From assembly GCA_951812955.1 (NCBI GenBank), contig OX638340.1, forward strand, positions 2,656,001 to 2,720,000: a stretch of DNA of 64,000 bases. Reading direction: 5' to 3'. Source of the DNA: an uncultured Gemmatimonadota bacterium (GTDB taxonomy: Bacteria > JAAXHH01). The notes under the pieces are model-generated. The model was not told where the DNA came from and did not search any database. It saw only the letters and a program-made list of their open reading frames with translations. This document shows positions 2,883 through 53,597 of the stretch, in pieces; the stretch's first letter is position 1, and each line of letters begins with the position of its first letter. The position numbers were made by a program, and so were the translations under genes.

Positions 2883-2890
2883 GGAACGGA

Positions 2891-6567: not shown

Positions 6568-6641
6568 CCGGGGCCGGGGGCGGGAGTTCTGATTTCAGTT
6601 CCCGCCGGGGCAAGCGAGGTTTCGTAGCGATACGCAAAGGG

Positions 6642-8066
6642 ATGGTCAACTCCATGAAACACGTCGTCATCGTGGGCGGCGGCTTTGCCGGACTGAACGC
6701 GGCCAAGAAACTCGGCGGCCGGACCGATGTCCGCGTCACCCTGGTGGACCGGCAGAACTACCACCTGTTCCAGCCGCTCCTCTACCAGGTGGCCATGGCC
6801 GGCCTGTCGCCCGCCGATATCGCCACGCCCATACGCAGCGTGCTTGCCCGGTGCGGGAACATTTCGGTGCTGCAGGGCTCGGTCGAGCGGGTCGATCTGC
6901 AGGAACGGACCGTATCGGTGGATTTCGGCCAGCTTCAATATGATTATCTGATGCTCTGTTGCGGGTCGATCCCGAGCTATTTCGGTCACGAGGACTGGGA
7001 GGAGCACGCACCCAGCCTGAAGACGATTCCGCAGGCCACCGAGATTCGCCGGCGCCTGCTGAGTGCCTTCGAAGAAGCGGAACGGACCGACGACACTGAG
7101 CGGCGCCGGCAACTGCTGACCTTCGTCGTCATAGGCGGCGGACCCACCGGAGTGGAGCTAGCGGGCGCCATCGGCGAAATGAGCCGTTTCACCCTCGCGC
7201 GGGACTTCCGCAACATCGACACGAAACTTACCCGCGTCATCCTGATCGAATCGGGCCCGCGCATCCTCTCGATGTTCTCCGAAAAGCTGGCGTCCCGGGC
7301 GACGCGGGACCTGGAAAAGCTCGGCGTGCAGGTCTGGCCGAACACGCTCGCGACGGATATAGACGAGCATGGCGTGCAGGCGGGACCGGAACGCATCGCG
7401 TCCTCGACGGTACTCTGGGCGGCGGGCGTTCGGGGCGTTGAAATCGAGGGACAGCGGCAACAGGGCGTGGAGGCGGAGCGAGTGGGGCGCGCGGAAGCAG
7501 ACTGCGAGGGACACGTGGAGGTAGACTGCGAGGGACACGTGGAGGTAGACCGCGGTGGACGCGTGGAGACGGACCGCGGAGCGCACGTGGAGGTGGACCG
7601 CGGGGGACGCGTAGTCGTCAACGAAGACCTGAGCATCCCAGGACACCCGAACGTGTTCGTCGCGGGCGACCAGGCCTGTTTTACCCACCAGACCGGCAGT
7701 CCCCTTCCGGGCACAGCGCCCGTGGCTATCCAGCAGGGACGCTTCGTGGCACAGACTATTCGCCGCGACCTCGCGTGCAGACCGCGTGAGGCCTTTCGAT
7801 TCGTCGACAAGGGACAGATGGCGACGATCGGTCGCAGCCGTGCCATCGTGGAAATCGGTAAACTCAGATTCTCAGGCTGGTTCGCGTGGGTCACCTGGCT
7901 GGTGGTGCACGTCTACTTCCTCGTGGGTTTCAAGAACCGGCTGCTGGTCGTACTGCACTGGGCCTGGTCCTATCTGACCTTCCGCCGCGGCGCCAGGCTG
8001 ATCGTGGAGCGCGAGTGGCGTTTCGGCGGGCGCAAGGACGAGACCATGCCTGACAGGGAAGAATAA
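6642..8066 (+). CDS. ndh: Type II NADH:quinone oxidoreductase (NDH-2), carrying an unusual in-frame 5 x 8-aa tandem repeat insertion
   Basis: MVNSMKHVVIVGGGFAGLNAAKKLGG...VRVTLVDRQNYHLFQPLLYQVA is a classic NDH-2 Rossmann N-terminus. A second dinucleotide-binding region follows (FVVIGGGPTGVELAG). The ORF-track ATG at 6396 overlaps the previous gene, so the internal ATG at 6642 (or 6654) is preferred. The stop codon overlaps the next gene's start (TAATG). Confidence 0.85.
   Translation: MVNSMKHVVIVGGGFAGLNAAKKLGGRTDVRVTLVDRQNYHLFQPLLYQVAMAGLSPADIATPIRSVLARCGNISVLQGSVERVDLQERTVSVDFGQLQYDYLMLCCGSIPSYFGHEDWEEHAPSLKTIPQATEIRRRLLSAFEEAERTDDTERRRQLLTFVVIGGGPTGVELAGAIGEMSRFTLARDFRNIDTKLTRVILIESGPRILSMFSEKLASRATRDLEKLGVQVWPNTLATDIDEHGVQAGPERIASSTVLWAAGVRGVEIEGQRQQGVEAERVGRAEADCEGHVEVDCEGHVEVDRGGRVETDRGAHVEVDRGGRVVVNEDLSIPGHPNVFVAGDQACFTHQTGSPLPGTAPVAIQQGRFVAQTIRRDLACRPREAFRFVDKGQMATIGRSRAIVEIGKLRFSGWFAWVTWLVVHVYFLVGFKNRLLVVLHWAWSYLTFRRGARLIVEREWRFGGRKDETMPDREE
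7500..7619 (+). repeat. Five tandem 24-bp units inside the ndh coding region (unit consensus gacygcgrgggacrcgtggaggtn)
   Basis: Read directly from the sequence: gactgcgagggacacgtggaggta appears twice, then three related units. Translation is DCEGHVEV DCEGHVEV DRGGRVET DRGAHVEV DRGGRVVV. The last unit merges into the native NDH-2 motif RVVVNEDLSIPGHPNVFVAGD. Confidence 0.85.
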
Positions 8067-10456: not shown

Positions 10457-10490
10457 CGCGGAGGAAAGTATCGACTGTATGGAGGGCCGG

Positions 10491-11246
10491 ATGAGTACAT
10501 CGCAATCCTGGGACCCGGAACGTTACGCCCGTAACGCCCGGTTCGTGGCGGACCTGGGCATGCCCGTGGTCGAGCTGCTGGAACCGCAGCCGGGTGAGTG
10601 CATCCTGGACCTGGGATGTGGCGACGGGGCACTGACGGCGAAGCTCGTCGATATGGGCTGCAGCGTCGTCGGCGTGGACAGCAGCGCGGAGCAGATCGAG
10701 GCGGCCAGGCAGATTGGTCTCGACGCACACGTCATGGACGGGCATCGGCTGACTTTCGAAGACGAATTCGACGCGGTGTTCAGCAATGCGGCGCTCCACT
10801 GGATGGGCCATCCGGACGAGGTGATCGCGGGCGTGCGGCGCGCGCTCAAGCCCGGCGGGAGGTTCGTGGCTGAATGCGGCGGGCACGGGTGCGTGGACAC
10901 CATTGTAAGGGCCCTCACTGAGGCGTTGAAACGGCGCGGTCTATGGGCGGACGGGATCAATCCGTGGTATTTTCCAACGGACGAGGAGTATCGCGAACGG
11001 TTGATCCGGCAAGGATTCGACGTGAAGTACATCGCGCTTATCCCCCGGCCCACCCCGCTTCCGGGCGACATCGGAGGCTGGCTGGAGACCTTCGCCGAAA
11101 ACTTCACGTCTCGGGTGCCCGAGGCGGAACGTCCCGCGTTTCTCGAAGAGGTCCGGGAAGCGATGAGGCCGAAGTTGTGCGATGCAGAGGGAGCGTGGAC
11201 GGCGGACTATATTCGGCTGAGGTTTAAGGCGGTGAAGGAGGGTTAG
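10491..11246 (+). CDS. Class I SAM-dependent methyltransferase, trans-aconitate methyltransferase (Tam)-like
   Basis: SWDPERYARNARF...ILDLGCGDGALT (SAM motif I)...FDAVFSNAALHWM matches the Tam-family pattern. GGAGGG sits 5 nt upstream of the ATG at 10491. The track ORF from 10449 overlaps the upstream gene's stop. Confidence 0.7.
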   Translation: MSTSQSWDPERYARNARFVADLGMPVVELLEPQPGECILDLGCGDGALTAKLVDMGCSVVGVDSSAEQIEAARQIGLDAHVMDGHRLTFEDEFDAVFSNAALHWMGHPDEVIAGVRRALKPGGRFVAECGGHGCVDTIVRALTEALKRRGLWADGINPWYFPTDEEYRERLIRQGFDVKYIALIPRPTPLPGDIGGWLETFAENFTSRVPEAERPAFLEEVREAMRPKLCDAEGAWTADYIRLRFKAVKEG

Positions 11247-15333: not shown

Positions 15334-15365
15334 GGCGTTCTTCTCCCGCTCGGGAAGCTCCGGTG

Positions 15366-15578
15366 TCAGCGGTCAATCTGATGGTCGTCGGAAATCCGGA
15401 GATGTCCTTCGTCCCTACCCAGGTGGGTATTCCTATCGTGCATTTCGATTCGAACCTCGGAGAACTTTACGTTCATTTCAGTTCGTAACTCTTCAATATC
15501 GTCTCGCAGGGAGGCGATGTCCTTCCGGATAGCAATGGTAGAACGCCCCATGAAGGTCAGGATCGCCACGACCAGCAC
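15366..15578 (-). CDS. Small hypothetical protein (repeat copy A): hydrophobic N-terminus plus charged coiled-coil-like C-terminus (...[32 protein letters not shown]...)
   Basis: ORF with a GTG start, immediately upstream of NHase alpha. Its 3' half is 100% identical over 67 bp to a second copy at ~17000-17170. The coding status is uncertain. Confidence 0.3.
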
Positions 15579-15600
15579 ACCACGGCTGTGATCCCCTGCA
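15380..15600. repeat. Direct repeat copy A (~220 bp) containing the 67-bp core ccctacccaggtgggtattcctatcgtgcatttcgattcgaacctcggagaactttacgttcatttc
   Basis: Identical 67-mer found at 15408-15474 and again at ~17005-17071. The flanks are ~75% similar, with 1-nt indels. Confidence 0.85.
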
Positions 15601-15683
15601 TTTACTAACCTGTGTTTTCCGTATTTAAAAGCATTATATCATGTTTTTGACTTTATGATGGAGACTTCGGAAAGTATTCCCTT

Positions 15684-16781
15684 TTACGCCTCGGTTAAAC
15701 TCAAATCCGTGATTGCTGCAATAAATCTCTCGGACACTGCTCGTGCGAGTCTGTTTTCTCGGTCATTTTCCGGATTCAAAGAAGCTACCATAAGTACAGC
15801 CTGGATAAAATAACGTAGCATGGCGAGACGGTAGTCTTTCCAGCAATCATCCAAGGTGTATCCTCTGACTCCATTGGCCTTCAGGGTTTCATGGTAGAAT
15901 TTAAGGAGTTGGCGTTCTTCGGCTTGTCGTTTTGGTGTGGTTTTTAAACATCCACCGATATACCATGCGATATCCGAAACGCCCTCTCCGCACGATACGT
16001 CCTGCCAGTCGATCACGGCGAAGCCCGGCTCTCCAAGAGAAGCACCAAAAAACACGTTCTCCAAACGAAAATCTCCGTGAACCATGGTTCTCGGCGGTTT
16101 ACCCAATTGGGATTCATTTTTTAACTTCTCGGGTAATTGTTTTCCAAATGTCTTGACTGCATCCGTCATCAAGTCTTCAGTTTTATCGGCAAAGACTGGA
16201 AAAGCTTCTTTATACTGATCAAGGATCCAATTCGAAACAGCGTCAGAATCCTTCGGCGAATTCGCCAGCCAATCAAACGCTTCGAGTCTTTTGTTTTCCC
16301 ACCAATAGGCGTGAAACCTGGCTATTTCGTGGAGAGCATGTGCCGTCTCTTTCATTGTACTTCCACTGATTTGATCTCCAACTTTCGCGGGAGCAAGGTC
16401 TTCAAGAATCCTGATGTACTTTCCATGAGTAACACTCATCGCACTGAAATAACAGAGGGGTGTGCGAAGGGGTATCTCGCTGGCAATTTGCTGATAAAAC
16501 AAAATCTCGCACTTATCTGGTGTAGGTAGACGCGTTTTTGCTCGTAGAGGCTCATCTGGTGCATGTAGTTTGGCAATCAGCTTTTTGGGCAGTTCTGATT
16601 GAGGTTGATTAAAGCCAAGGTGCAAGCGTGCTAACTGTCCGTCACAAGTCAATTCTGCAATCGGCTCGATACGAAGCGAGGCTATACCGACATTCGAAAA
16701 CGTATTTGTTGAAACTAGTGCTGCGGTGAGCCAATGAGATGTTATATCCAGAGGTGTATTGGGAATACTCAAAAGAGTCAT
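15684..16781 (-). CDS. Phosphotransferase-family protein (APH/choline-kinase/EcKL-like kinase fold), 365 aa, lower GC
   Basis: Brenner motif MVHGDFRLENVFF (HxDxxxxN) and FAVIDWQD (DxD-like). HAYWWE is shared with the paralog at 56166-57263. AT-richer than the surroundings. Confidence 0.75.
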   Translation of the reverse strand: MTLLSIPNTPLDITSHWLTAALVSTNTFSNVGIASLRIEPIAELTCDGQLARLHLGFNQPQSELPKKLIAKLHAPDEPLRAKTRLPTPDKCEILFYQQIASEIPLRTPLCYFSAMSVTHGKYIRILEDLAPAKVGDQISGSTMKETAHALHEIARFHAYWWENKRLEAFDWLANSPKDSDAVSNWILDQYKEAFPVFADKTEDLMTDAVKTFGKQLPEKLKNESQLGKPPRTMVHGDFRLENVFFGASLGEPGFAVIDWQDVSCGEGVSDIAWYIGGCLKTTPKRQAEERQLLKFYHETLKANGVRGYTLDDCWKDYRLAMLRYFIQAVLMVASLNPENDRENRLARAVSERFIAAITDLSLTEA

Positions 16782-16939
16782 CAGAATTCCAGCCGCCTAG
16801 ATGTAGCCGAATAACGAGCACGCTTACTACATCAGTGTTCGAGAGGAATAACCAGTAATGAGTTACAGGTTTATGATATGGCGGTGCCAATTACACAGAA
16901 CTACAGACTCAAACAACGGCGCTGAGATCACCGTTCGCC

Positions 16940-17200
16940 CTTACTGTGGTCGTTGGAATTCGTAGATCTCCTTCGACCGTACCCAGGCGGTTATTCACCC
17001 TACCCAGGTGGGTATTCCTATCGTGCATTTCGATTCGAACCTCGGAGAACTTTACGTTCATTTCTGTCCGTAGCCCTTGAAATCGTCCCTCAAAGTCCCG
17101 ATGTCTTCCCTCAGAGCGTTTGTCGAACGCCCCAGGAAGGTGGGGATCGCCACGACCAGCACGCCGACAGCAGTGATTCCTTGTATGAATATGCCGAGTG
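16940..17200. repeat. Direct repeat copy B (~260 bp) with the same 67-bp core and an internal 21-bp tandem duplication (ccctacccaggcggttattca / ccctacccaggtgggtattcc)
   Basis: Read directly from the sequence. The minus-strand reading frame is shifted relative to copy A by single-nucleotide indels. Confidence 0.85.
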
Positions 17201-23441: not shown

Positions 23442-23761
23442 TTGTGGTCTCCGGTTGTCGTAGGGGCGACTAGCACTAGAGGATCCTGTTTTAGGTGTCA
23501 TACACGCTTTCACAAGTTGAATTGCAAAAGATGGACAAGCGAAGAATCGCTGGACTGAGCACATCAGCAAAAAACGCGAAGTTGAATCCGGCAAGCCGAT
23601 TCTTTTTACGAGGCTACAAATCTGTTTTCGACTAAGTTTGTAGTCAAAGTAAACGCTTCATGCCGTAAAAAACACATGTCATTTTTTAAAATTAGAAACA
23701 ATCGCAATCGAAACTGGAGATAAACCACCCCTCATCGAACTCAAAAGCAAAGAAGCGACAT

Positions 23762-24650
23762 ATGGCTGATGACTCTACCACGACTGCTATACCACCAAAA
23801 CAACCGGATACGAGTAGTTCGATTGCAATTAAGTGGCTTCATTCCAAGCTTGTGGAGATTGAAGACCATACATGCATGGATGCGTTAACGATATTTGGTC
23901 CCATAACGGAAACAGTAGATCATCGAGTCAGGTTGGCGATCGAGAGTTTACCGAATCACCGCAACGGCTTGTTGGTCATTATCGATACACCCGGTGGAAT
24001 TGTAGAGGTAGCCGAACGTATTGTAACCACTATCAGGCATTACTACAAAGAGGTCAAGTTTCTCATACCTGATAAAGCGATGTCAGCAGGTACGGTTCTG
24101 GTGATGTCTGGAGATGCGATATTGATGGATCACTTTTCTTGTTTAGGCCCAGTTGATCCACAGTTGTATATCGAAGGCAAACCAATCCCGACGTCTGTCC
24201 TTTCTTATCTTGAACAATATGAACGATTTGTTCAAAAATCCATGGAAGGTACCTTGACGAGTGCTGATTTGGTTCTGCTTCAAAAGCTTGACGCTGCTGA
24301 CTTACGACAGTACGAACTGGCGGCCGAGTTATCTGTGCGCCCGTGATTGGCTTGTTCGGTATAAATTCAAGGATTGGTCCAAGCACAGTTCCACAGGGAA
24401 CACGGTTTCAAAAGAGGAAAAAACAATCCGTGCCGAAGAAGTTGCGAGAGCGCTTAATGATCAGGAAAGATGGGGTACCCATGGAAGGGGAATAAACCGA
24501 GAAGTTCTTGTCAAATTAAAGCTCAAGATTGATAATTTGGAATCCGATACTGAATTAAGTAGTCTAACAAAAGAGTATTTCTGGTTTTTTAGAGACTTAG
24601 CATTCAAAGAGGAGTCGCAAAGTCTTGTACACAACCGGTTATTCATCTGA
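23762..24650 (+). pseudogene. SDH/S49-type Clp-fold serine protease, disrupted by a -1 frameshift near 24325-24335 (N-terminal part 23762-24346; C-terminal part continues in the +1 frame to 24650); low-GC island 1
   Basis: The N-terminal frame has IIDTPGGIVEVAERIVTTIR...AMSAGTVLVMSGDAILMDHFSCLGPVDPQ (oxyanion and Ser nucleophile context of ClpP/SppA-class proteases). The second frame (SYLCARDWLVRYKFKDW...GTHGRGINREVL) aligns to the C-terminus of the intact paralog at 35429-36433 (VKSWLESYMFKGM...KSHSRHIPREEL). Confidence 0.55.
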
Positions 24651-24660
24651 GAGGAATATC

Positions 24661-24882
24661 ATGAAAACAAATGACAAACTTGTCCTCACTAAGGAACAAC
24701 TGGTTGAGAACCCCGCTGTCAATCCCGGGATTGTAAAAGAAGCGCTGAAAATGCGCCTTGAACTGGAGCGTTTAGGAGTATGGGATAACAGTGGGACACG
24801 TGTGGTATCGCCTTCCGAAATCAGGCCAGCTAAGAATCCCATCGGGAATATCAGACGTCGGTCTATTTCTCAAATCCGGTAA
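24661..24882 (+). CDS. Small hypothetical protein (74 aa), companion of the SDH-type protease; has a PGIVKE motif
   Basis: MKTNDKLVLTKEQLVENPAVNPGIVKEALKMRLELERLGVW... starts 11 nt after the protease stop. GAGGAA RBS. Homologous to the small ORF upstream of the second protease copy. Confidence 0.4.
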   Translation: MKTNDKLVLTKEQLVENPAVNPGIVKEALKMRLELERLGVWDNSGTRVVSPSEIRPAKNPIGNIRRRSISQIR

Positions 24883-25015
24883 TCCTAGCCTGCAGCCGTA
24901 TTATCCTCAGGTATTAAGTCCTTGTTCCGGATTCAATACCCATACTGAATGGTTTGATTAGGCAGTAGCGAAGAAAACGAGCCCGCCCGTTCCTCACCCG
25001 CTCTTCACCCGCTCT

Positions 25016-34199: not shown

Positions 34200-35069
34200 A
34201 TGTTTTCGGCTGGTACGACACGGGTGCGGTTGCCTCGGACGCTGCGGATCTGCGGCAGCATATTGGTCCTCTATGGACTGGTGTTCTGCCACTTCGGATG
34301 CGGTTCGTCTGGTTCGGAGGTGGATCCGAATGACAGAGAGGCCGTGGCCCGGGCGTTCTTGGACCAGTTGATCGAGGGCACGATCACGCCCGGAACGATC
34401 GGTTTCCACGAAGTACCCGAACAGTTCGTGCAGGATGGGAAGGCGTTGTATACCCGGTACGGCTGTACCGTGTGCCACGGCATGGACGGCCACGGGGACG
34501 GGCCGGTCGCCTATACGCTGAAGCCACCACCCCGCGACTTCAGGGACCCCGGCGCCTACCGCGTCGGCCGCGACGTGGTCACGATCGCCGGCACACTGAG
34601 GGACGGCATGCCCGACAGCCCGTCCATGGTGCCCTTCCCCCATATCAAGGACGAAGAGCGCTTCAAGATCGCCATGTACGTGGCTTCGCTGCAGCCGGCG
34701 GACGACCTGGAGATCGCCGGGACCTGGGTGCGGGCCACACCGCCGAACCGCGACGTTACCGCCGCCTACCTGGTGATCAAGAACCGGTCGGACCGGACCC
34801 GGGAATTGCTGTCCGTCGAGACGCCGGCCGCTGAATACACGGAACTGCATACCATGCGGTACGTAGACGACATGATGGAGATGGAAAAGATTGAACGCCT
34901 GGTGGTTCCAGCGCAGGGCGAGGCGGCATTGAAGCCTGGCGGAAACCACATCATGTTGTTCGGTGTGAAACGACAGATGGTGGAAGGCGATTCGGTATCC
35001 CTGACTCTGCGTTTCGCCGACCAGTCGACCCGGAACATTGTGGCCGAAGTGTTGAAAAGCAAACCATAG
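34200..35069 (+). CDS. Cytochrome c (CxxCH) - PCu(A)C copper chaperone fusion lipoprotein
   Basis: Lipobox LVFCHFGCGS. CTVCHG heme-binding motif. C-terminal PCuAC motifs ...ELHTMRY...MMEME...NHIMLFG (H(M)X10MX21HXM-type). Confidence 0.7.
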   Translation: MFSAGTTRVRLPRTLRICGSILVLYGLVFCHFGCGSSGSEVDPNDREAVARAFLDQLIEGTITPGTIGFHEVPEQFVQDGKALYTRYGCTVCHGMDGHGDGPVAYTLKPPPRDFRDPGAYRVGRDVVTIAGTLRDGMPDSPSMVPFPHIKDEERFKIAMYVASLQPADDLEIAGTWVRATPPNRDVTAAYLVIKNRSDRTRELLSVETPAAEYTELHTMRYVDDMMEMEKIERLVVPAQGEAALKPGGNHIMLFGVKRQMVEGDSVSLTLRFADQSTRNIVAEVLKSKP

Positions 35070-35212
35070 TACCTACAATATGTTGTGTGTAGTAGTGGAA
35101 AAAAGTACAACATGCTTGTCTAATAGGATTTATTTGGGATTTCACACCACAAACAACTATCTTATAGATACTTCCTCAATTCCGTATACCTATCCCCCTA
35201 GGGAGTATGTAC

Positions 35213-35404
35213 ATGCCTCGATCTGAGTCCAAACGCGTACAAGAACATGAAGCCATGCTCCAAGAAGCACTATCCCGTCCTGGTGTTAAAGAGGTCATGG
35301 AGGTTTATAGAGGATGGCTAGAATCAGACCAGGGAATGACCCCATATCGTGTGGCTACTAAGGAACCTCATCGGATCACGACAACTAATTCCACTAATCA
35401 ATAA
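35213..35404 (+). CDS. Small hypothetical protein (~64 aa), companion of the SDH-type protease; has a PGVKE motif; low-GC island 2
   Basis: MPRSESKRVQEHEAMLQEALSRPGVKEVMEVYRGWLES... has an AGGGAG RBS 7 nt upstream of the ATG at 35213. Aligns with the 24661-24882 product. Confidence 0.4.
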   Translation: MPRSESKRVQEHEAMLQEALSRPGVKEVMEVYRGWLESDQGMTPYRVATKEPHRITTTNSTNQ

Positions 35405-35428
35405 ACAGTGTGACGCGGGAGCTATTCG

Positions 35429-36433
35429 TTGCCAATCTGGAGCGAAATCCTTAAAGAGTTGACACCGACACAAAATGGACTTCCAGTTGATTTTGATGGC
35501 GTTCGAAGGAAATATCTACTGAAACTCCATCAGCACACGGAACGGAATGTAATTCTGTACGCCTCAGGATGGCTTCAAGGGGAAGCCCCTCCTGCGCTTG
35601 TTTCAATAAATGATGAAGACATACAGGCGTTCATGGAAGTTAGTCACGGTCTACATGGAGATCAGCTCGATCTGATCCTACATAGCCCCGGAGGTTTTCC
35701 CGAAGCAGCCGAAGCGATCGTTGCGTATCTGAGGTCTCGATTTTCTCATATAAGAGTAATTGTTCCACAACTCGCAATGTCGGCAGCAACTATGATAGCA
35801 TGTGCTGCCGATAAGATCGTGTTAGGCAAGCATTCATTTCTCGGTCCTACTGATCCTCAGATAATGCTGGCAACCCCTCTAGGTGTGCGTTCAGTACCGG
35901 CTCAGTCTGTCCTGGATCAGTTTGATCGGGCCAAGAAGGAATGTTCCGACCCAGCCAAATTGTCGGCTTGGTTACCGATGTTAAGTCAATATGGTCCGGA
36001 TTTACTGGTTCAATGTGAGACCGCGTTAGAAATGTCTAAAGTGCTAGTGAAGTCTTGGTTGGAATCGTACATGTTTAAAGGGATGGATGATCGTAAATCA
36101 AGGGCGGAAAACGTCTCGACGTGGCTCGCTGATCACATGGAGTTCAAAAGCCACAGTCGACACATACCACGCGAAGAACTTGAAGACCACCAGTTGTCGA
36201 TATCTAGGTTGGAAGAAGATACGATATTGCAGGACATGAGCCTTTCAGTGTTTCATGCAACTACTCATACCTTTTCCGGCACCCCCGCTGTAAAGATCGT
36301 CGAGAACCATACAGGTCGTGCATTCATAAAACAAAATGTTACTCAACCGGTGCAGGTTGCCATGCAGCCAGTCCAGTCGATAGAAGTTGCACCAGTACCA
36401 CTAGTAATGCCCGAACATAGTGCCGATAGTTGA
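35429..36433 (+). CDS. SDH/S49-type Clp-fold serine protease (intact, 334 aa)
   Basis: LILHSPGGFPEAAEAIVAYLRSRF...LAMSAATMIACAADKIVLGKHSFLGPTDPQ has the ClpP/SppA-class catalytic Ser context. Low GC. Inserted between the PCuAC and SCO1 genes. Confidence 0.65.
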   Translation: MPIWSEILKELTPTQNGLPVDFDGVRRKYLLKLHQHTERNVILYASGWLQGEAPPALVSINDEDIQAFMEVSHGLHGDQLDLILHSPGGFPEAAEAIVAYLRSRFSHIRVIVPQLAMSAATMIACAADKIVLGKHSFLGPTDPQIMLATPLGVRSVPAQSVLDQFDRAKKECSDPAKLSAWLPMLSQYGPDLLVQCETALEMSKVLVKSWLESYMFKGMDDRKSRAENVSTWLADHMEFKSHSRHIPREELEDHQLSISRLEEDTILQDMSLSVFHATTHTFSGTPAVKIVENHTGRAFIKQNVTQPVQVAMQPVQSIEVAPVPLVMPEHSADS

Positions 36434-37076
36434 ACCTACCCTAGGCGGCGGGATTCCCACTCCTGTTCGACGGTACTTCTGCTATTATGTGATTTCGATC
36501 TGCGCGGCCCTGCTGCTCATTCCAGGATGCCGCACCGAATCCCCTCCTCCGTCCCAGATCGACGTCCCCGCACTCCTGGACTACGGCGAACGCTTCGGCG
36601 GCGATTTCACGCTGACCGACCAGGACGAAGCGCTATTCAACCTTTCTGAATACCGCGGCGACGCCTTCCTGATCTTCTTCGGCTACACCTTTTGCCCCGA
36701 TGCCTGCCCGCTCATGCTCTCCAAGCTGGCGGCCGTCTACGACGTGCTCGATCTCGAACCAGGCCAGCACGTACGCACGGTATACATCACCGTCGATCCA
36801 TCGCGCGACACGCCCGAGCAACTCAGAGAGTACCTGGCCTACTTCTCCACGGTGGACGTCCGCGGCCTGACGGGATCGCGGGAGGAGATCGACGAGGTCG
36901 CCGAACGGTACGGCGTGCTGTACAAACTGCAGGAGCCGAACGAGGCGGGGCACTACCTGGTGGCCCACACCACCACCCTGTTCCTGGTGGATACGGAGGG
37001 CCGCCTGCGTTTCCGGTTCCATCCAAGCGACACCCCGGAATACATCGCGGCGGGCGTGAAACTGCTCTTCGAATAG
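36420..37076 (+). CDS. SCO1/SenC-family copper chaperone (thioredoxin fold), lipoprotein
   Basis: FGYTFCPDACP (CxxxC) and HTTTLFLVD (conserved His). Lipobox LLLIPGC. The start overlaps the protease stop by 14 nt, so its exact start is uncertain. Confidence 0.8.
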   Translation: MPIVEPTLGGGIPTPVRRYFCYYVISICAALLLIPGCRTESPPPSQIDVPALLDYGERFGGDFTLTDQDEALFNLSEYRGDAFLIFFGYTFCPDACPLMLSKLAAVYDVLDLEPGQHVRTVYITVDPSRDTPEQLREYLAYFSTVDVRGLTGSREEIDEVAERYGVLYKLQEPNEAGHYLVAHTTTLFLVDTEGRLRFRFHPSDTPEYIAAGVKLLFE

Positions 37077-37142: not shown

Positions 37143-39545
37143 CTAATGCTCGCGCCGCAGCGCGTCCACCGGGTTCATCGTGGCGGCCTGAAGGGTCTGG
37201 GTACTCACCGTGATCCAGGCGATGAGCAGTCCGAGCAGGCCCGCGGCGGGGAACAACAGCAGCGAGATCTCGGTGTGATAGGCGTACTGCCGAAGCCACT
37301 GCTGCGTGACGAAGTAGGCCGCTGGCCAGGCGATGACGTTCGCAATTACCACGAGGATGGTGTATTCCCTTGAAAGTAGCAAGACGAGTTGCCGCGCCGA
37401 CGCGCCCAGGGCCTTCCGGATTCCCACCTCCCTGGTGCGCTGTTTCGCCGTGAAGACCGCAAGGCCGAACAGTCCGAGGCACGCCGTAAAGACCGCCAGC
37501 CCGGCAAACATGGTGACGAGCCGTCCCAGCAACTGATCCGAACGATACAGGCGTTCCACGTCCTGGTCGAGGAACGAATATACGAAGGGGATATCCGGCG
37601 TGGACGCCTTCCACATGGCTTCCAGGTCCCTCAAGGTTCCGCCGGGATCGCCGGGAACGAACCGCACGGCCCAGTAGCCGGAACCCCCGAAGGTGAAGAT
37701 TACCGGATCGATCCGCTCGTGGAGGCTCCTGAGGTGGAAGTCGCCCACCACCCCGACGACCTGCATCTCGCTGTTCCCCATTTTTACGAACTGATCCATG
37801 GCTTCTTCGGGCGATCCCCATCCCAGTCGACGGACCGCCTCCTCGTTCAGGAGACTTCCGGTCGATCTCCCCCATCCTCCTCCATCTGGGTCCTCGACCC
37901 ATTCGAAATCTCTTTCAAAGGATATGTCGCGTCCGACAAGCGACTCGAGCCCGAGCGTCCGTACAAGACCGCCCTCGGTATGGATGTGTTGCATCTCGAC
38001 CGTCCCCGCCGCCGGGTCGTCTACGCGGCCCACGGGCAGGATCGGCAGTCTCCCCCGGCCGGCCGCTCGTCCGGGCATGTAGTTCGCCCCGGCAACGCTG
38101 ACTACCCCGGCGTGCTGTGGGTAACGATCACGGATCATGTCGAAGTCCATGCCCTCGAGGTCGGGCAGGATCACCACGTGTTCCTTCTCGAATCCCAGGT
38201 GTTTCTCCCGCATGTACTCCAGCTGCTGGTAGACGGTTCCCGTGCCGAACATCAGCAGGATGGCCAGGGAGAATTGCATGACCACGAGGGCTTTTCGCAG
38301 GGTTGCGGCGCCGGTACCCGAAAGTCCGCGAAAGATCGCAACGGGACTGATCCGGGACAGCAGCAGGGCGGGGTAGGCGCCGGCGAGGACGCCCGCCGTG
38401 AGGATAATAGCCGTGCCGCCCAGAATTGACCACGGTTCGAGCGAAGGCATGGAAAGTACGTGGCCCGTCATGGACCGGAAGAGGGGCAGGACCACCCAGA
38501 CAGCGGCCAGGGCGACGAGGAACGCCACGGCACTCAGGAGTATGGTTTCACCCAGGAACTGGCGGCCGATCTGGCTTCTGGTGGCTCCTGAGACTTTGCG
38601 CATGCCGATTTCCCGGGCCCGGGAGATGGACCGGACAATCGCCAGATTCGTGAAATTCATGCAGGCAATCAGCAGGATGAAGACCGCGATGGCGATCAGC
38701 ATCCAGATGAAAGACACTTCGCCGTTTGCCTCCATCTCCAATTCCAGTTGAGAATGCAGATGGATATCGAAAAGCGGCTGCAATTCATAGGTGTGGGTAA
38801 AGGCCGTCGCCCGGACCGATGCGTCGACATGTTCCGTGAGCCGTGTCTGCAGCAGGTTGCCTATCTGTTCGGGCGAGACGCCGAGCGGCAGGAGCAGGTA
38901 GGTGTAGTACGCGCTGTTCGCCCAGTTTCTCAAAAGACCGATAGGATCGCCGCGTCCGGTCGTCGTGGCGATGGAGACGTAGAAATCGGGATGATAGTGG
39001 GCGTAAGGCGGTGGGTCTTCCATGATGGCGGTGATCGTGAAGGGAAACAGGTGGTCACCGGTGATCGTCTTGCCGATCGGGTCGGCGTCCCCGAAATACT
39101 TGCGGGCCATGGATGCGCTGATGACCATCGTATTCGGCGCCGTGAGCGCGGAGGAAGGGTTGCCGCGCACCAGGGAGACATCGAAGACTTCGAAGAGGTT
39201 GCCATCCGCCCAGTAGACCCGTTGCTCATAGAACTGCTTGTCTTCGGTGGTGAAAAGCCAGGTCCCCACGGTCGCCCGAAGGCGGAGCACTTGCTCCACT
39301 TCGGGAAGCTGCGTACCGATGAAGTCGCCCAGAATGCCGGGCGTCCGCGCCGTGCGATCCGTGACGACCCGGTATATACGGTCGCCGCGGGAGTTGTGCC
39401 GGTCGTAGCTCAACTCGTCGCGGATGTACAGCAGGATGACCAGGCAGCAGGCCATGCCGATGGCGAACCCGATGACGTTGATCGCGGCGTGGGACCTGGA
39501 CGAGAGTACGTTCCGCCAGGCGGTTAGGAGGTAGTGTCCGATCAT
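37143..39545 (-). CDS. ABC transporter permease, MacB/FtsX-type, 800 aa; paralog 4 of 4
   Basis: MIGHYLLTAWRNVLSSRSHAAINVIGFAIGMACCLVILLYIRDELSYDRHNSRGDRIYRVV... and a C-terminal ...ATMNPVDALRREH. Same architecture as the + strand paralogs. Confidence 0.85.
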   Translation of the reverse strand: MIGHYLLTAWRNVLSSRSHAAINVIGFAIGMACCLVILLYIRDELSYDRHNSRGDRIYRVVTDRTARTPGILGDFIGTQLPEVEQVLRLRATVGTWLFTTEDKQFYEQRVYWADGNLFEVFDVSLVRGNPSSALTAPNTMVISASMARKYFGDADPIGKTITGDHLFPFTITAIMEDPPPYAHYHPDFYVSIATTTGRGDPIGLLRNWANSAYYTYLLLPLGVSPEQIGNLLQTRLTEHVDASVRATAFTHTYELQPLFDIHLHSQLELEMEANGEVSFIWMLIAIAVFILLIACMNFTNLAIVRSISRAREIGMRKVSGATRSQIGRQFLGETILLSAVAFLVALAAVWVVLPLFRSMTGHVLSMPSLEPWSILGGTAIILTAGVLAGAYPALLLSRISPVAIFRGLSGTGAATLRKALVVMQFSLAILLMFGTGTVYQQLEYMREKHLGFEKEHVVILPDLEGMDFDMIRDRYPQHAGVVSVAGANYMPGRAAGRGRLPILPVGRVDDPAAGTVEMQHIHTEGGLVRTLGLESLVGRDISFERDFEWVEDPDGGGWGRSTGSLLNEEAVRRLGWGSPEEAMDQFVKMGNSEMQVVGVVGDFHLRSLHERIDPVIFTFGGSGYWAVRFVPGDPGGTLRDLEAMWKASTPDIPFVYSFLDQDVERLYRSDQLLGRLVTMFAGLAVFTACLGLFGLAVFTAKQRTREVGIRKALGASARQLVLLLSREYTILVVIANVIAWPAAYFVTQQWLRQYAYHTEISLLLFPAAGLLGLLIAWITVSTQTLQAATMNPVDALRREH

Positions 39546-51274: not shown

Positions 51275-52651
51275 ATGCTGGTAATCGTCAGCGACCTGCA
51301 TTTGACGGACGGCACATCCGGCCGGACCATCAATGCGCATGCCTTTCGGTTGTTCGCCGACCGGGTTCGGGACATGGCCTTCGACGCCTCCTGGCGGCGC
51401 GGGGGTTCCTACCGGCCGGTCGAGCGCGTCGACATCCTCCTTCTGGGAGATATCCTGGACGTCATTCGCTCGACCCGGTGGCTTGAGACCGATCGCGGGA
51501 CGCGTCCCTGGAGCGACCCCGCGGACGTCCGGCTCGCCCGGAAGGTGAATGAAGTAACCGATGAGATCCTGAAGCACAATGCGCACGCGCTGTCTCATCT
51601 CGGGAACCTGGCGCGTCCCGGAGGCCTCCTGCTTTCTCCGCCCGGGGGAGCGAATGGGAACCCGAAGCATTCCGAGCCCGGCCTGCCGGTACGGATCGGC
51701 ATCCACTACATGGTCGGCAACCACGACTGGTTCTATCATTTGCCCGGCGCGGACTACCACCCTCTGAGGAGGAAGGTCTCGGACGCCCTGGGGCTGGAGA
51801 ACGACCCTGACGCGCCCTTCCCCCACGATCAGGAAGAATCGGCCCGACTCGACGGCATACTTCGTGATCACGGGGTCATCGCCCGCCATGGAGACGTCTT
51901 CGATCCCTTCAATTACTCCGGATCGAGGAACGAGCCGTCGCTGGGGGACGGCGTCGTCATAGAATTGGTGATCCGCTTCCACCGGGAGGTCCTCGCCCGC
52001 CTGGGATCACGAATGCCCCGGTCGTTCATCGACGGACTGCGGGAGATGGACAATGTCCGCCCCCTGGCAGCCGTTCCCGTCTGGATCGACGGCCTGTTAC
52101 GTAGTCACGGGGTGCCAGGAAGAGAGGCTCGCAAGGTAAAAGACACCTGGAACGACCTGGTCGACGCCTTCCTCGATCTGGATTTCATCCGGGGGCGGGA
52201 CGCTTACTTGAATCCCTTCGACAGCGTGGACCGGCTGGAATACGCGCTGAGGATCACGCGAGACATTCCGCTAGTCGCGGCGAGCGCGCTGGGCGCGTGG
52301 TGGAACGACCTGGCGAGTGGTCCAGGCGGCACGGACGAATCCTATCATGCCCACGCTGCCGGGGAAAAGGCGGTGCTGGACAGGGAGGCACGGCACGTGG
52401 TATACGGCCATACCCACCACTACGAAATCGTGCCCCTCGACGCCATGACGCGGGACGGCCGGCGATTCGAACAGGTCTACTTCAACGCGGGCACGTGGCG
52501 CAGGGTACATCGGCTCGCTCGTTCGTCCCGGCGCGGCCGGTCCTTTGTAGCCTACGACGTCATGACCTTCCTGACATTTTTCAAGGACGACGAACGCATG
52601 GGCCGCCCGTTCGCCTGCTGGTCGGGGACGCTGGGCGAGGCGCGCCGGTAG
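51275..52651 (+). CDS. Calcineurin-like metallophosphoesterase (MPP superfamily), 458 aa with long insertions
   Basis: All MPP motifs are present in order: VSDLHLTDG (DxH), LLLGDILD (GDxxD), MVGNHDW (GNHD/E), ARHGDVFD, and YGHTHHYE (GHxH). Confidence 0.75.
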   Translation: MLVIVSDLHLTDGTSGRTINAHAFRLFADRVRDMAFDASWRRGGSYRPVERVDILLLGDILDVIRSTRWLETDRGTRPWSDPADVRLARKVNEVTDEILKHNAHALSHLGNLARPGGLLLSPPGGANGNPKHSEPGLPVRIGIHYMVGNHDWFYHLPGADYHPLRRKVSDALGLENDPDAPFPHDQEESARLDGILRDHGVIARHGDVFDPFNYSGSRNEPSLGDGVVIELVIRFHREVLARLGSRMPRSFIDGLREMDNVRPLAAVPVWIDGLLRSHGVPGREARKVKDTWNDLVDAFLDLDFIRGRDAYLNPFDSVDRLEYALRITRDIPLVAASALGAWWNDLASGPGGTDESYHAHAAGEKAVLDREARHVVYGHTHHYEIVPLDAMTRDGRRFEQVYFNAGTWRRVHRLARSSRRGRSFVAYDVMTFLTFFKDDERMGRPFACWSGTLGEARR

Positions 52652-52934
52652 GACGGGATATGAGTATCAGAACCGCAATCCGAATCAAAGTCAACTGAGA
52701 TTGAACGACATAAACGAGTTACGGTCAGCAAAGAATAGTTTACCCTAACTGCTGATATTCGTACATTTTGTTGACGAGCATTTGACTCCAAGTTCTAACG
52801 ATACTTCGCATGCGATGCGTGTTTTTCAAACCAAAGATCGTGTTGGAAGTGTTATACTGAGTGAGGATACGTGTGAATTGCCGACGAGATTCCTGACAAA
52901 AACTTAATAGAATTTGGCCACAAAGGAGACTGTT

Positions 52935-53123
52935 ATGTCTGAGGATAGACATACTTCCAGAGAGCAGAACGATATAGAAATCAAGAGTGTAAACGAAGAT
53001 TCGCCAGGAATCGAGACTATGCCCGATATTACCCCGGAGATGATTTCGCCAAATCCTCCCCAAAGCAACAGTGAGAACAACCAGCACGATCAAACAGGGT
53101 CATCAAATGTAGAAAGTGACTAA
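52935..53123 (+). CDS. Small acidic, low-complexity hypothetical protein (62 aa) in an AT-rich spacer
   Basis: AAGGAG RBS 6 nt upstream of ATG. The product is Ser/Asn/Glu/Pro-rich. Weak coding evidence. Confidence 0.25.
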   Translation: MSEDRHTSREQNDIEIKSVNEDSPGIETMPDITPEMISPNPPQSNSENNQHDQTGSSNVESD

Positions 53124-53309
53124 GATGTCGAGTTCAGTTCAGGCGATATAGAGTGGGTGCAATTGCACAAGAAAAAGTAACAAATAAAACTGTATTCAAC
53201 CGCTTGATTAGAATCCTTGTTAAGACTGGCAGCAGACCCTTTTCACTTGACTTGAAAGACCTCTCGCCCTACCATGGTGCAGTTGTTTAGGGAGATATCG
53301 GGAAGGTAT

Positions 53310-53396
53310 GCCGGGGTGGTGGAATTGGTAGACACAGGAGACTTAAAATCTCCCGGACCTCAATAGTCCGTGCCGGTTCGAGTCCGGCCCTCGGCA
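53310..53396 (+). tRNA. tRNA-Leu (anticodon UAA), type II with a long variable arm
   Basis: GCCGGGGTGGTGGAATTGGTAGACACAGGAGACTTAAAATCTCC...GGTTCGAGTCCGGCCCTCGGCA. The anticodon loop cuUAAaa reads UAA. Acceptor stem has one G-U pair. No encoded CCA. Confidence 0.85.
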
Positions 53397-53435
53397 TTCG
53401 GGGTCGTGAACAAACTGGTGAATGCTGGATATGCA

Positions 53436-53509
53436 GGGCGCTTAGCTCAGATGGTTAGAGTGCCACGTTGACATCGTGGAGGTCAGTGGTTCGATCCCAC
53501 TAGCGCCCA
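53436..53509 (+). tRNA. tRNA-Val (anticodon GAC)
   Basis: GGGCGCTTAGCTCAGATGGTTAGAGTGCCACGTTGACATCGTGGAGGTCAGTGGTTCGATCCCACTAGCGCCCA. The anticodon loop ttGACat reads GAC. T-loop GGTTCGATCC. Confidence 0.85.
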
Positions 53510-53597
53510 TTCCGTTCCGAACCAAGCAAATGCCCGGCCCTGGTCGCTCCGGCCGGGTTTCTTAATTCCCCCTGCTCCTAAACCAGTTTGCTCCAGC

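What the first reader, a model, noticed from the sequence alone, without database searches (positions are those of the whole stretch)
35070..36433. Low-GC mini-island 2: the same small-protein plus SDH-type protease module, inserted precisely between the PCuAC and SCO1 copper-chaperone genes
PCu(A)C (34200-35069) and SCO1 (36420-37076) are normally adjacent or operonic partners for cytochrome-oxidase CuA assembly. Here they are split by 1.36 kb of AT-rich DNA carrying a 64-aa ORF with a PGVKE motif and an intact 334-aa Clp-fold protease. The protease's last 14 nt overlap the SCO1 start. This looks like a precise insertion of a mobile two-gene cassette into an operon, possibly using the operon promoter. 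The protease paralogs are only about 35% identical, so the module is old and has spread, not recently duplicated.
Basis: partly seen in the sequence, partly recalled or inferred. Interest (0 to 1): 0.8.

Follow-up and report, generated by a model that had tools for sequence, protein, structure and literature searches.

The report
Protease gene pair inserted in copper operon
A 1.37-kb AT-rich insert between two copper-chaperone genes carries a small protein and a ClpP-like serine protease; the same uncharacterised pair sits in anti-phage defence islands and prophages of many other bacteria, so it is probably a new defence or toxin-antitoxin-like module.

Summary
Window 35070-36439 has GC 0.46 (GC3 0.36-0.43), against 0.60 (GC3 about 0.8) for the host. 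It encodes a 63-aa protein (35213-35404) and a 334-aa SDH/ClpP-fold serine protease (35429-36433), between cyt c-PCuAC and SCO1.

Thirteen orthologous loci in related sponge- and coral-associated Latescibacterota-type MAGs have PCuAC and SCO1 contiguous. One of them has a 98% identical neighbouring gene. Five other loci carry the insert at the same site. A 5-6 bp direct repeat (CC[A/G/C]TAG) flanks it. The insert now supplies SCO1's conserved GTG start.

Both genes are under strong purifying selection (dN/dS 0.06-0.24). They have diverged as much as the host, yet stayed AT-rich.

In 17 of 17 loci of the close subfamily the small gene lies directly upstream of the protease. Eight of ten unrelated genomic contexts hold defence or toxin-antitoxin genes. 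Two of these are embedded between hmaA and hmaB of Hma systems. More distant homologues lie at accessory-gene positions in phages.

I found no match to known defence systems, solved structures or papers. Best reading: a new protease-effector defence or TA-like pair, with the mechanism inferred. "Same module as island 1" is only partly supported: the proteases are paralogues, but the small ORFs are not detectably related and the gene order is reversed.

The parts
34200..35069 (+). Host gene: lipoprotein cytochrome c-PCu(A)C fusion. Its stop codon TAG (35067-35069) is the last host triplet before the insert.
   Evidence: Pfam PF04314 5e-36 and PF00034 4.9e-08. Orthologues are 70-93% identical in 19 related MAG loci.
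35064..35069 (+). Left copy of the flanking direct repeat (CCATAG); probable target-site duplication.
   Evidence: L024 has a perfect CCGTAG at both junctions. Empty alleles L019 and L021 have one copy, CCGTAGG.
35070..36439 (+). The inserted cassette (1370 bp, GC 0.46). ACCTAC lies at both ends (35071-35076 and 36434-36439).
   Evidence: Occupied versus empty alleles; composition.
35052..35079 (+). Sigma-70-like promoter match (TTGAAA-16-TACAAT) straddling the left junction. The -35 hexamer is in host DNA and the -10 hexamer is in the insert.
   Evidence: Consensus scan only, 10 of 12 matches. The number of promoter-like sites in the region is not above the shuffle expectation. Weak evidence.
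35075..35119 (+). Conserved palindrome or hairpin. The arms are 35075-35088 and 35105-35119, giving 14 pairs. Candidate operator or 5' RNA hairpin.
   Evidence: The arms are invariant in 5 lineages while the loop varies, so no covariation can be seen. The element occurs only at this cassette among 121 loci and the window.
35213..35404 (+). Small partner protein, 63 aa. It has a helix-RPG-helix hairpin, a short third helix, and a low-confidence (probably disordered) conserved C-terminal tail (ITTTNS).
   Evidence: At least 604 homologues, none with a Pfam domain. 356 clusters at 50% identity, with no informative domain fusion among those checked. AF2 pLDDT 80. No PDB fold match. dN/dS 0.08-0.24.
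35429..36433 (+). SDH-type ClpP-fold serine protease, 334 aa, TTG start, no obvious signal peptide by reading of the N-terminus. Putative catalytic residues are S118, D142 and H242.
   Evidence: PF01972 7.7e-19. phrog_11747 1e-87. AF2 pLDDT 88. Distant ClpP and SppA fold matches. Giant-virus SDH proteinases at TM about 0.5. S, D and H invariant across both subfamilies. dN/dS 0.06-0.07.
36440..36444 (+). Right copy of the flanking direct repeat (CCTAG). CTA at 36441-36443 sits where the ancestral SCO1 ATG was.
   Evidence: Alignment to type-1 empty alleles: ATG GGC GGG CTT in L010 against CTA GGC GGC GGG ATT in the window.
36420..37076 (+). Host SCO1/SenC lipoprotein gene. It now starts at a GTG inside the protease 3' end, which adds the 7 codons MPIVEPT and overlaps the protease by 14 nt.
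   Evidence: Pfam PF02630 8.9e-41. AGTGCCG is conserved in all six occupied alleles.
23762..24882 (+). Related but distinct island 1. It holds a paralogous SDH protease split into two frames (23762-24346 and 24261-24650) and a 74-aa ORF downstream (24661-24882).
   Evidence: By my reading of the sequence, the break would be repaired by removing one C from a CCC run.

Best explanation
The cassette is an accessory two-gene module. It most likely works as an anti-phage defence or toxin-antitoxin-like system.

Proposed mechanism. The effector is a cytoplasmic SDH/ClpP-fold serine protease. The 63-aa protein encoded just upstream is its dedicated partner. I infer that the partner's helical hairpin docks on the protease and that its conserved, probably unstructured Ser/Thr-rich tail occupies the substrate groove. 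That would keep the protease latent, or set when it fires. When the partner is depleted or displaced, for example by phage infection or loss of the operon, the protease would cleave cellular or phage proteins. The invariant palindrome just inside the left end is a candidate operator for autoregulation.

History in this genome. The module entered immediately after the PCuAC stop codon, at the point where the SCO1 start codon overlapped that stop, and left a 5-6 bp duplication. It has since co-diverged with the host lineage as a presence/absence polymorphism. I infer that alleles are exchanged by homologous recombination through the flanking genes, because empty alleles keep the ancestral junction. 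The insert has become entrenched, because SCO1 now initiates at a GTG inside the protease gene.

What is shown: the insertion, the strict pairing of the two genes, purifying selection, an intact catalytic triad, and the defence-island, Hma-embedded and prophage contexts.

What is inferred: the defence or TA function, the roles of the two proteins, and the operator.
For: Insertion and polymorphism:
- 13 empty and 6 occupied orthologous sites.
- Junction repeats.
- The cassette is confined to host clade A and is polymorphic within sub-clades: window versus L010 at FtsX 98% identity; L024 and L027 versus L015 and L021-23 at 94-98%.

Functional constraint:
- dN/dS is 0.06-0.07 for the protease and 0.08-0.24 for the small gene, against 0.11-0.16 for host FtsX.
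- S118, D142, H242, R244 and PGG are invariant across divergent members.

Obligate pairing:
- The small ORF lies 3-30 nt upstream of the protease in 17 of 17 distinct loci of the close subfamily.
- Divergent partners share the ..ELLxxALxxPGVxExM.. core and an S/T-rich tail at phage and plasmid homologues of 38-61% identity.

Context: 8 of 10 unrelated bacterial loci hold defence or TA genes within 6 kb.
- L001: SocA/Panacea.
- L004: MmeI restriction-modification gene, NERD, and PDC-S11.
- L116: MazEF and DruA.
- L117: HTH-peptidase M78 and PIN genes, plus PF06634/DUF1156 and DUF499 genes of the kind that in L124 match Hma.
- L119: an HmaA remnant, HEPN and GmrSD.
- L121: SMODS, a methyltransferase and a NERD-kinase.
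- L122: PDC-S36 and RE_endonuc.
- L124: Hma and HEC-01.

Embedding in Hma:
- In L124 the pair lies between hmaA and hmaB, in the same orientation; both PADLOC matches have E = 0.
- L117 has the same gene order by Pfam domains.
- Payne et al. reported that 7 of 9 Hma-embedded candidates they tested were antiviral (10.1101/2024.01.29.577857).

Phage accessory-gene positions:
- Klebsiella lambdoid region between the replication genes and the antiterminator.
- Shewanella Mu-like phage, between the late regulator C and the lysis genes.
- Porphyromonas gingivalis phage, beside HicAB.
- Gordonia phage BeeGee, after the tail genes.

- 18 further IMG/VR contigs carry clear homologues.
Against: - There is no experimental evidence, and no match to any PADLOC model.
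- The small protein has no recognisable DNA-binding or antitoxin domain.
- The complex could not be modelled, so the inhibitor role of the tail is conjecture.
- Two of ten contexts (L003, L123) show no defence genes.
- In this window the pair sits alone in a housekeeping operon, not in a defence island.
- The arms of the palindrome never vary, so the sequence data cannot distinguish an operator from an RNA hairpin, or exclude neither.
- Guilt by association has a real false-positive rate.
Confidence: 0.5

Rival explanations
1. The roles are reversed within the same kind of system. The small protein is the toxin or effector. The protease either keeps it in check by degrading it, acting as an enzyme antitoxin like type VII TA systems, or activates it by processing.
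For: The conserved low-confidence tail could be a cleavage site rather than an inhibitor. The pairing is strict. The small protein is a standalone family, with no informative domain fusion among the long hits checked.
Against: The upstream and less conserved gene is usually the neutraliser in two-gene systems (general knowledge of type II TA systems). The protease is far more conserved (68-94% identity across phyla) than the small protein (43-68% outside the close relatives). The small protein has no membrane segment or known toxin fold.
Confidence: 0.15
2. It is a regulatory proteolysis switch of the ImmR/ImmA type. The small protein would be a repressor that binds the upstream palindrome. 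The protease would cleave it on a signal and so derepress the operon, which here would include SCO1.
For: An invariant palindrome lies at the promoter-proximal end. The gene order is small then protease. The pair occurs in prophages near regulatory regions. SCO1 is translationally coupled downstream.
Against: No HTH, RHH or other DNA-binding domain was found. The upstream non-coding region and palindrome are not shared with cassettes in other phyla. Downstream genes differ in every context, so there is no common regulated target.
Confidence: 0.12
3. It is a mobile-element or phage fitness factor other than host defence, for example a counter-defence or superinfection-exclusion protease that degrades host immune proteins or incoming phage proteins.
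For: The family occurs in temperate phages and in IMG/VR contigs. It is distantly related to prohead proteases (NCBIfam NF045542 2.3e-10; PHROG head-maturation families).
Against: Embedding inside host Hma systems and placement in chromosomal defence islands, in the same orientation, fit defence better than counter-defence. Long vertical retention in a symbiont chromosome under purifying selection also fits defence better.
Confidence: 0.1
4. It is a decaying remnant of a phage head-maturation protease and scaffold, with no current function.
For: Weak profile similarity to ClpP-type head-maturation proteases. Single-base frame breaks in the L012 and L024 copies and in island 1.
Against: dN/dS is 0.06-0.24 over a dS of 0.5-1.1. 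The catalytic residues are invariant. Thousands of intact homologues exist. No capsid, portal or terminase gene lies nearby. The L012 and L024 breaks are in short homopolymer runs, and I believe those assemblies are long-read, so the breaks may be errors.
Confidence: 0.03
5. It is a housekeeping protease that takes part in CuA or cytochrome oxidase assembly, for example by maturing SCO1 or CoxB.
For: It sits inside the PCuAC-SCO1 operon and is translationally coupled to SCO1.
Against: It is absent from 13 of 19 orthologous loci, including the closest relative. Its N-terminus shows no obvious signal peptide, whereas PCuAC and SCO1 are exported lipoproteins. Its GC3 is foreign. The same pair occurs in unrelated, non-respiratory contexts.
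Confidence: 0.03

Closest known systems
Pfam PF01972 SDH_protease / NCBIfam NF047768 (ClpP-like Ser-Asp-His serine proteinases, formerly DUF114)
   Same: The Pfam score is significant and above the gathering threshold (68.2 bits against 31.3). Ser, Asp and His are invariant in that order (S118, D142, H242). The fold is ClpP/crotonase-like. The nearest viral structural neighbours are annotated SDH proteinases.
   Different: Only the core matches (profile positions 93-175 of 286). The NCBIfam score of 77 is far below its cut-off of 250. This subfamily has its own N-terminal helices and a helical C-terminal domain of about 150 aa, and it always comes with a small upstream partner. I found no paper that characterises the function of any member.
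Hma-embedded candidate (HEC) and PDC defence systems (Payne et al., bioRxiv 10.1101/2024.01.29.577857; PADLOC-DB)
   Same: A short cassette of unknown function sits between hmaA and hmaB in the same orientation, in two independent loci. It also lies beside PDC-S11, PDC-S36 and HEC-01 genes.
   Different: Neither protein matches any HEC or PDC model or any other PADLOC-DB v2.0.0 model. The paper's main text names no ClpP or SDH protease. Nothing has been tested.
Protease-toxin TA and defence pairs such as IetAS (subtilisin-like IetS with the AAA ATPase IetA)
   Same: A two-gene unit whose larger member is a serine protease, found on mobile DNA and in defence contexts (IetAS as described in PMC13069673).
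   Different: The protease fold is unrelated (ClpP-like, not subtilase). The partner is a 63-aa helical protein, not an ATPase. There is no sequence relationship.
Type II toxin-antitoxin operons
   Same: A small upstream gene and a larger downstream gene lie 24 nt apart. A palindrome sits at the 5' end. The unit spreads horizontally, sits next to other TA and defence genes, and is AT-richer than its host.
   Different: No known toxin or antitoxin domain is present. Toxicity, neutralisation and autoregulation are untested.
ClpP (S14), SppA (S49) and ClpP-type phage prohead proteases
   Same: The same fold superfamily. The best PDB fold hits are ClpP and B. subtilis SppA (4kwb), in which the enzyme's own C-termini lie in the active sites. 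That offers a structural precedent for a tail sitting in the groove.
   Different: Foldseek E is only about 4e-4 with TM 0.3-0.6. There is no PDB sequence hit. The residue order is Ser-Asp-His, not Ser-His-Asp (ClpP) or Ser-Lys (SppA). There is no ATPase partner gene, no membrane anchor, and no position within a phage head-gene module.

Membership tests
SDH-type ClpP-fold serine proteinase (PF01972 / NF047768) | Profile match above the curated threshold | tested here: inconclusive
   Pfam: 68.2 bits against a cut-off of 31.3, so it passes, but only profile positions 93-175 of 286 align. NCBIfam equivalog: 77 bits against 250, so it fails.
SDH-type ClpP-fold serine proteinase (PF01972 / NF047768) | Conserved Ser, Asp and His in that order along the chain | tested here: met
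   S118 (AMSAAT), D142 (GPTDPQ) and H242 (SHSR) are invariant in 103 close homologues and in 9 divergent members that include the island-1 paralogue. Their proximity in space was not measured.
SDH-type ClpP-fold serine proteinase (PF01972 / NF047768) | ClpP/crotonase-like fold | tested here: met
   The AF2 model has pLDDT 88. Foldseek hits ClpP and SppA at probability 1.00 and annotated SDH proteinases in BFVD at E = 1e-9 and TM about 0.5.
Known anti-phage defence systems (PADLOC-DB v2.0.0) | Match of either protein to a system model | tested here: not met
   There was no hit for the small protein. The protease gave only a spurious 0.027 hit.
Defence-island or embedded defence candidate (guilt by association or embedding) | Recurrent placement next to, or inside, known defence systems in unrelated genomes, in the same orientation | tested here: met
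   Eight of 10 unrelated loci qualify, and two are between hmaA and hmaB. The sample is small and no formal background rate was computed.
Defence-island or embedded defence candidate (guilt by association or embedding) | Protection against phage when expressed | not testable with these tools
   This needs cloning and plaque assays.
Type II toxin-antitoxin system | Two adjacent co-directional genes, with the small one upstream and tight spacing | tested here: met
   The gap is 24 nt in the window. The small gene lies immediately upstream, 3-30 nt from the protease, in all 17 loci.
Type II toxin-antitoxin system | Antitoxin with a recognised DNA-binding domain (RHH, HTH, AbrB or Phd) and a toxin of a known family | tested here: not met
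   The small protein has no Pfam, NCBIfam or PHROG domain and no PDB fold match.
Type II toxin-antitoxin system | Toxicity of one partner that the other neutralises by direct binding | not testable with these tools
Transposon, insertion sequence or integron cassette (self-mobile element) | An encoded transposase or integrase, terminal inverted repeats or an attC site, and a target-site duplication | tested here: not met
   Only two ORFs are present, and neither is a recombinase. No terminal inverted repeats were found. The end sequences are not repeated elsewhere. A 5-6 bp flanking direct repeat is present.
ClpP-type phage prohead protease | Position in a head-morphogenesis module with portal, scaffold and capsid genes, and a profile match above threshold | tested here: not met
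   NF045542 scores 40.7 bits against 120. There are no structural genes in the window. In three of the four phages examined the gene lies outside the head module. In the Porphyromonas phage it lies between portal/adaptor and neck, beside HicAB.
SppA / S49 signal peptide peptidase | Ser-Lys dyad, membrane anchor or signal peptide, and a profile match | tested here: not met
   TIGR00706 scores 17.8 bits against 155, and SohB 17.7 against 259. I read no hydrophobic N-terminus in the sequence.

The most novel reading that the evidence does not exclude
The pair founds a new class of anti-phage immune system. A latent, self-contained ClpP-fold (SDH) protease, evolutionarily close to phage prohead proteases, is held in check by a small pseudo-substrate partner. 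On infection it is released to cleave phage morphogenetic proteins or essential host proteins. It needs no ATPase or nucleotide signal.
Probability: 0.3. Interest if true: 0.75.

Novelty: new variant of a known kind. Interest (0 to 1): 0.6.

Why it matters
If the pair is a defence or TA system, it adds a protease fold that I found in no defence-system database or paper. It would also define a partner protein family with hundreds of members and no annotation. The protease subfamily is large (more than 7,000 clusters at 90% identity) and crosses phyla, so the system would be common.

The locus also offers a clean natural experiment. Occupied and empty alleles of one site coexist in closely related symbiont genomes. 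The insert has captured the start codon of an essential copper chaperone, which would penalise simple deletion. After long co-divergence it still has a GC3 about 0.4 below its host, which bears on how accessory DNA stays AT-rich.

Tried and rejected
- PADLOC scan of both proteins and the island-1 ORFs: nothing.
- PDB sequence search with the protease: nothing at E <= 1.
- PDB fold search with the small protein: nothing.
- Rfam over the whole window: only two tRNAs, far from the insert.
- Seven literature searches and two in-paper searches, using PF01972, SDH_sah, DUF114, ClpP-like/S49 plus defence or TA terms, and Hma-embedded: no paper on this pair.
- Exact-protein lookup of the window protease: not on record.
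- Viral scan with the single protease sequence: nothing. The alignment-based scan worked.
- E. coli genomes searched with the Klebsiella homologue's DNA: no match.
- Terminal inverted repeats: none.
- Other copies of the left-end palindrome in the window or in 121 loci: none outside the orthologous cassettes.
- Homology of island 1's 74-aa ORF to the partner family: rejected by hhalign and by a broadened HMM.
- Domain fusions of the partner protein: none; the long hits look like mis-called ORFs.
- My first right boundary (about 36497) was wrong. The SCO1 N-terminus of occupied alleles is a diverged type-1 allele, and the true junction is at 36439/36444.
- RNA covariation in the upstream region: none, because the arms are invariant.
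Full report
**1. What is in the sequence**

The region 35070-36433 has GC 0.461. The window mean is 0.598, and only 1.4% of equal-sized windows are as low. The contrast is sharper at third codon positions: 0.36 for the small gene and 0.43 for the protease, against 0.75-0.83 for five host genes.

Two co-directional ORFs fill the region.
- The small gene most likely starts at ATG 35213 and encodes 63 aa. The evidence is GGGAG seven bases upstream, and homologues that begin MPxSESKR.
- The protease starts at TTG 35429, has its own GGGAG, and encodes 334 aa.

Upstream lies a lipoprotein cytochrome c-PCuAC fusion, and downstream lies SCO1. The protease stop overlaps the SCO1 GTG at 36420 by 14 nt.

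**2. It is an insertion**

A scan of one genome per species with the PCuAC protein returned 19 orthologous loci (L009-L027). They come from sponge- and coral-associated MAGs labelled Latescibacterota or Gemmatimonadetes, which identifies the host lineage.
- In 13 of the loci PCuAC and SCO1 are contiguous. The stop and start overlap as TGATGG in L009, L010 and L013.
- L011, L012, L024 and L027, together with a JGI contig (L008), carry the same two genes at the same place.
- L010 is empty, although its neighbouring FtsX-type permease is 98% identical to the window's.

**3. The junctions**

The host sequence runs up to the PCuAC stop codon TAG at 35067-35069. The insert begins TACCTACAAT at 35070 and ends GAACCTAC at 36439. 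It is followed by CCTAG (36440-44) and then by GCGGCGGGATT.

That last stretch aligns with the start of SCO1 in the empty alleles (ATG GGC GGG CTT in L010). The ancestral start codon now reads CTA in the window, GTA in L024 and ATA in L027.

In L024 the hexamer CCGTAG is present at both junctions, whereas empty alleles L019 and L021 have it once. This is a probable target-site duplication of 5-6 bp. In the window the two copies have diverged to CCATAG and CCCTAG.

ACCTAC lies at both ends of the insert. I found no terminal inverted repeats, no recombinase gene, and no other copy of the end sequences. The cassette is therefore cargo, not a self-mobile element.

All six occupied alleles keep AGTGCCG at the protease 3' end. 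SCO1 now starts at that GTG, which adds seven residues, and it is presumably translated by coupling to the protease gene. A simple deletion of the cassette would remove SCO1's start codon.

**4. Age and population history**

A tree from FtsX identities puts the cassette in one host clade only, clade A, whose members are at least 86% identical. Within that clade it is polymorphic inside sub-clades.

Synonymous divergence between cassette copies is 0.5-1.1. That is as large as, or larger than, the divergence of FtsX in comparable genome pairs (0.38-0.57). dN/dS is 0.06-0.07 for the protease and 0.08-0.24 for the small gene, against 0.11-0.16 for FtsX. The cassette is therefore old, functional and co-diverging. 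It is not a recent arrival and not a relic.

The stretch between the PCuAC stop and the SCO1 lipobox exists in at least four unrelated allele types, and these do not follow the host tree. Empty alleles keep the ancestral junction, so they are not deletions of the occupied one. I infer that alleles are swapped by homologous recombination through the flanking genes.

Why GC3 has stayed near 0.4 through all this divergence is unexplained. One possibility, which is inference only, is weaker biased gene conversion or weaker codon selection on a segment that has no partner in many strains.

**5. The two proteins**

Protease:
- It hits PF01972 (SDH_protease) above threshold, but only over the catalytic core. 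It falls below the NCBIfam cut-offs for SDH, prohead protease, SohB and SppA.
- It matches a PHROG family of unknown function at 1e-87.
- The AF2 model (pLDDT 88) has a ClpP-like core, an N-terminal helical segment and a C-terminal helical domain.
- The nearest solved folds are ClpP and SppA, at E about 4e-4 only. The nearest viral models are giant-virus proteins annotated as serine dehydrogenase proteinase, at TM about 0.5. There is no PDB sequence hit.
- S118, D142, H242, R244 and the PGG turn are invariant, even in the 21-31% identical island-1 subfamily. This fits the Ser-Asp-His order that names the family.

Small protein:
- It has no domain hit.
- It has at least 604 homologues by word-indexed search, and 356 clusters at 50% identity by full HMMER search. 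Nearly all are 50-130 aa, and the long hits I checked carry no informative domain fusion.
- The model shows a helix-RPG-helix hairpin, a short third helix and a low-confidence tail that is nevertheless conserved (YR.ATKEP..ITTTNS).
- It has no PDB fold match.

**6. Pairing and context elsewhere**

Close homologues of the protease (68-94% identity, more than 7,000 clusters) occur in MAGs labelled Gammaproteobacteria and Boseongicola, and partner homologues in MAGs labelled Rhodospirillaceae and Chromatiales. That points to spread across phyla.

In all 17 distinct loci of this subfamily that I hold, the small gene lies immediately upstream of the protease. At homologues of 38-61% identity in phages, plasmids and IMG/VR contigs, an upstream ORF of 56-75 aa is again present. 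It has the same core (..ELLxxALxxPGVxExM..) and an S/T-rich tail.

Of ten unrelated bacterial contexts, eight hold defence or TA genes within 6 kb:
- L001: SocA/Panacea.
- L004: MmeI restriction-modification gene, NERD and PDC-S11.
- L116: MazEF and DruA.
- L117 and L124: between hmaA and hmaB of Hma systems, in the same orientation. PADLOC confirmed HmaA and HmaB in L124 (E = 0 for both); L117 has the same gene order by Pfam domains. L124 also has HEC-01 alongside.
- L119: an HmaA remnant, HEPN and GmrSD.
- L121: SMODS, a methyltransferase and a NERD-kinase.
- L122: PDC-S36.

Payne et al. showed that 7 of 9 tested Hma-embedded cassettes were antiviral (10.1101/2024.01.29.577857). Their text names no ClpP or SDH protease, and PADLOC-DB v2.0.0 has no model for either protein.

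In phages the pair sits at accessory-gene positions:
- a Klebsiella lambdoid region, between the replication genes and the antiterminator;
- a Shewanella Mu-like phage, between the late regulator and the lysis genes;
- a Porphyromonas phage, beside HicAB;
- Gordonia phage BeeGee, after the tail genes, where the small ORF is unannotated.

**7. Mechanism**

The best-supported reading is a defence or TA-like pair with the protease as effector and the small protein as its dedicated partner.

I propose, as inference, that the partner's tail lies in the substrate groove. The precedent is B. subtilis SppA, whose own C-termini occupy its active sites (4kwb). Loss or displacement of the partner would then unleash the protease.

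A palindrome with 14 pairs at 35075-35119 has invariant arms in five lineages, while its loop varies. It lies next to a promoter-like match that straddles the junction. It is a candidate operator, but the element is specific to this lineage's cassette.

The rivals are listed with their tests in the rival-explanations section: reversed roles, an ImmR/ImmA-like switch, a phage counter-defence factor, a relic, and a copper-assembly role.

**8. Relation to island 1**

The protease at 23762-24650 is a paralogue, 32% identical over 130 aa and in the same PHROG family. It is split by one frame break, which by my reading of the sequence would be repaired by removing one C from a CCC run.

Its 74-aa neighbour lies downstream of it, not upstream. 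It shares only the short PG[IV].KE string with the partner family, and profile methods find no relationship.

Two metagenomic relatives of that protease also have an unrelated small ORF about 20 nt downstream. Island 1 therefore represents a different architecture of the same protease superfamily, not the same module.

**9. Verdict**

The insertion reading is confirmed and sharpened. Function remains a well-supported inference from context. The pair is not described in any resource I could search, so it is a new variant within the known class of small protease-bearing defence and TA modules.

Noticed in passing
window 15350-17165: A third low-GC island (GC about 0.46, GC3 0.43) holds a 365-aa kinase-like gene on the minus strand (15684-16781; weak homoserine-kinase and LxmK hits). 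It is flanked by direct repeats of about 169 bp (15413-15581 and 16998-17165; 94% and 76% identity in two blocks), which looks like an insertion with a duplicated target.
   Followed up: partly
window 52550-53510: A fourth low-GC stretch (about 52550-53450) has only short ORFs. tRNA-Leu(TAA) lies at its 3' edge (53309-53397) and tRNA-Val(GAC) follows at 53436-53509, a classic integration hotspot.
   Followed up: no
window 23600-24960: In island 1 the paralogous SDH protease is broken into two frames near 24330-24345. By my reading the break would be repaired by removing one C from a CCC run, so it could be an assembly error or a real pseudogene. A 74-aa ORF follows it 10 nt downstream.
   Followed up: partly
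L009-L027, PCuAC stop to SCO1 lipobox (window 35060-36530): The PCuAC/SCO1 junction and the SCO1 signal-peptide region exist as at least four unrelated allele types. Their distribution cuts across the host tree: type 1 in L009, L010, L013 and L022; type 2 in L015, L019 and L021; type 3 in L014, L016, L017 and L018; type 4 is the occupied allele. This looks like a recombination hotspot with polymorphism shared across clades.
   Followed up: partly
L015 about 5860-5890: Empty allele L015 has TAAACTACAGG right after the PCuAC stop. This resembles the TAG-ACCTAC-CGTAGG junction sequences of occupied alleles and may be an excision footprint or a relic of the original target.
   Followed up: no
L012 about 6762 and L024 about 6558: The protease is frame-shifted in two occupied relatives by single-base deletions in TT and TTT runs. 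I believe these assemblies are long-read, so sequencing error and real decay cannot be told apart.
   Followed up: partly
L117, L119, L122, L124 (gene directly upstream of the pair): A NOV_C-domain protein lies on the 5' side of the pair, upstream of the small gene, in 4 of 10 unrelated contexts: adjacent in L119, L122 and L124, and about 3 kb upstream in L117. It is full-length HmaA in two loci, a 179-aa HmaA C-terminal remnant in L119, and PDC-S36 in L122. It may be a preferred insertion neighbourhood or a functional link.
   Followed up: partly
window 500-11000 and 37143-39545: Three tandem paralogues of an 800-aa MacB/FtsX-type permease are spaced 3.7-3.9 kb apart and are 64-78% identical at the DNA level. 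A fourth copy lies inverted, right next to SCO1.
   Followed up: no
L001, L003, L004, L117-L124: In 8 of the 10 other host genomes measured, the cassette's GC is lower than that of its flanks (for example 0.54 against 0.64, and 0.59 against 0.71). Low GC is therefore a property of the module, not of one donor.
   Followed up: partly
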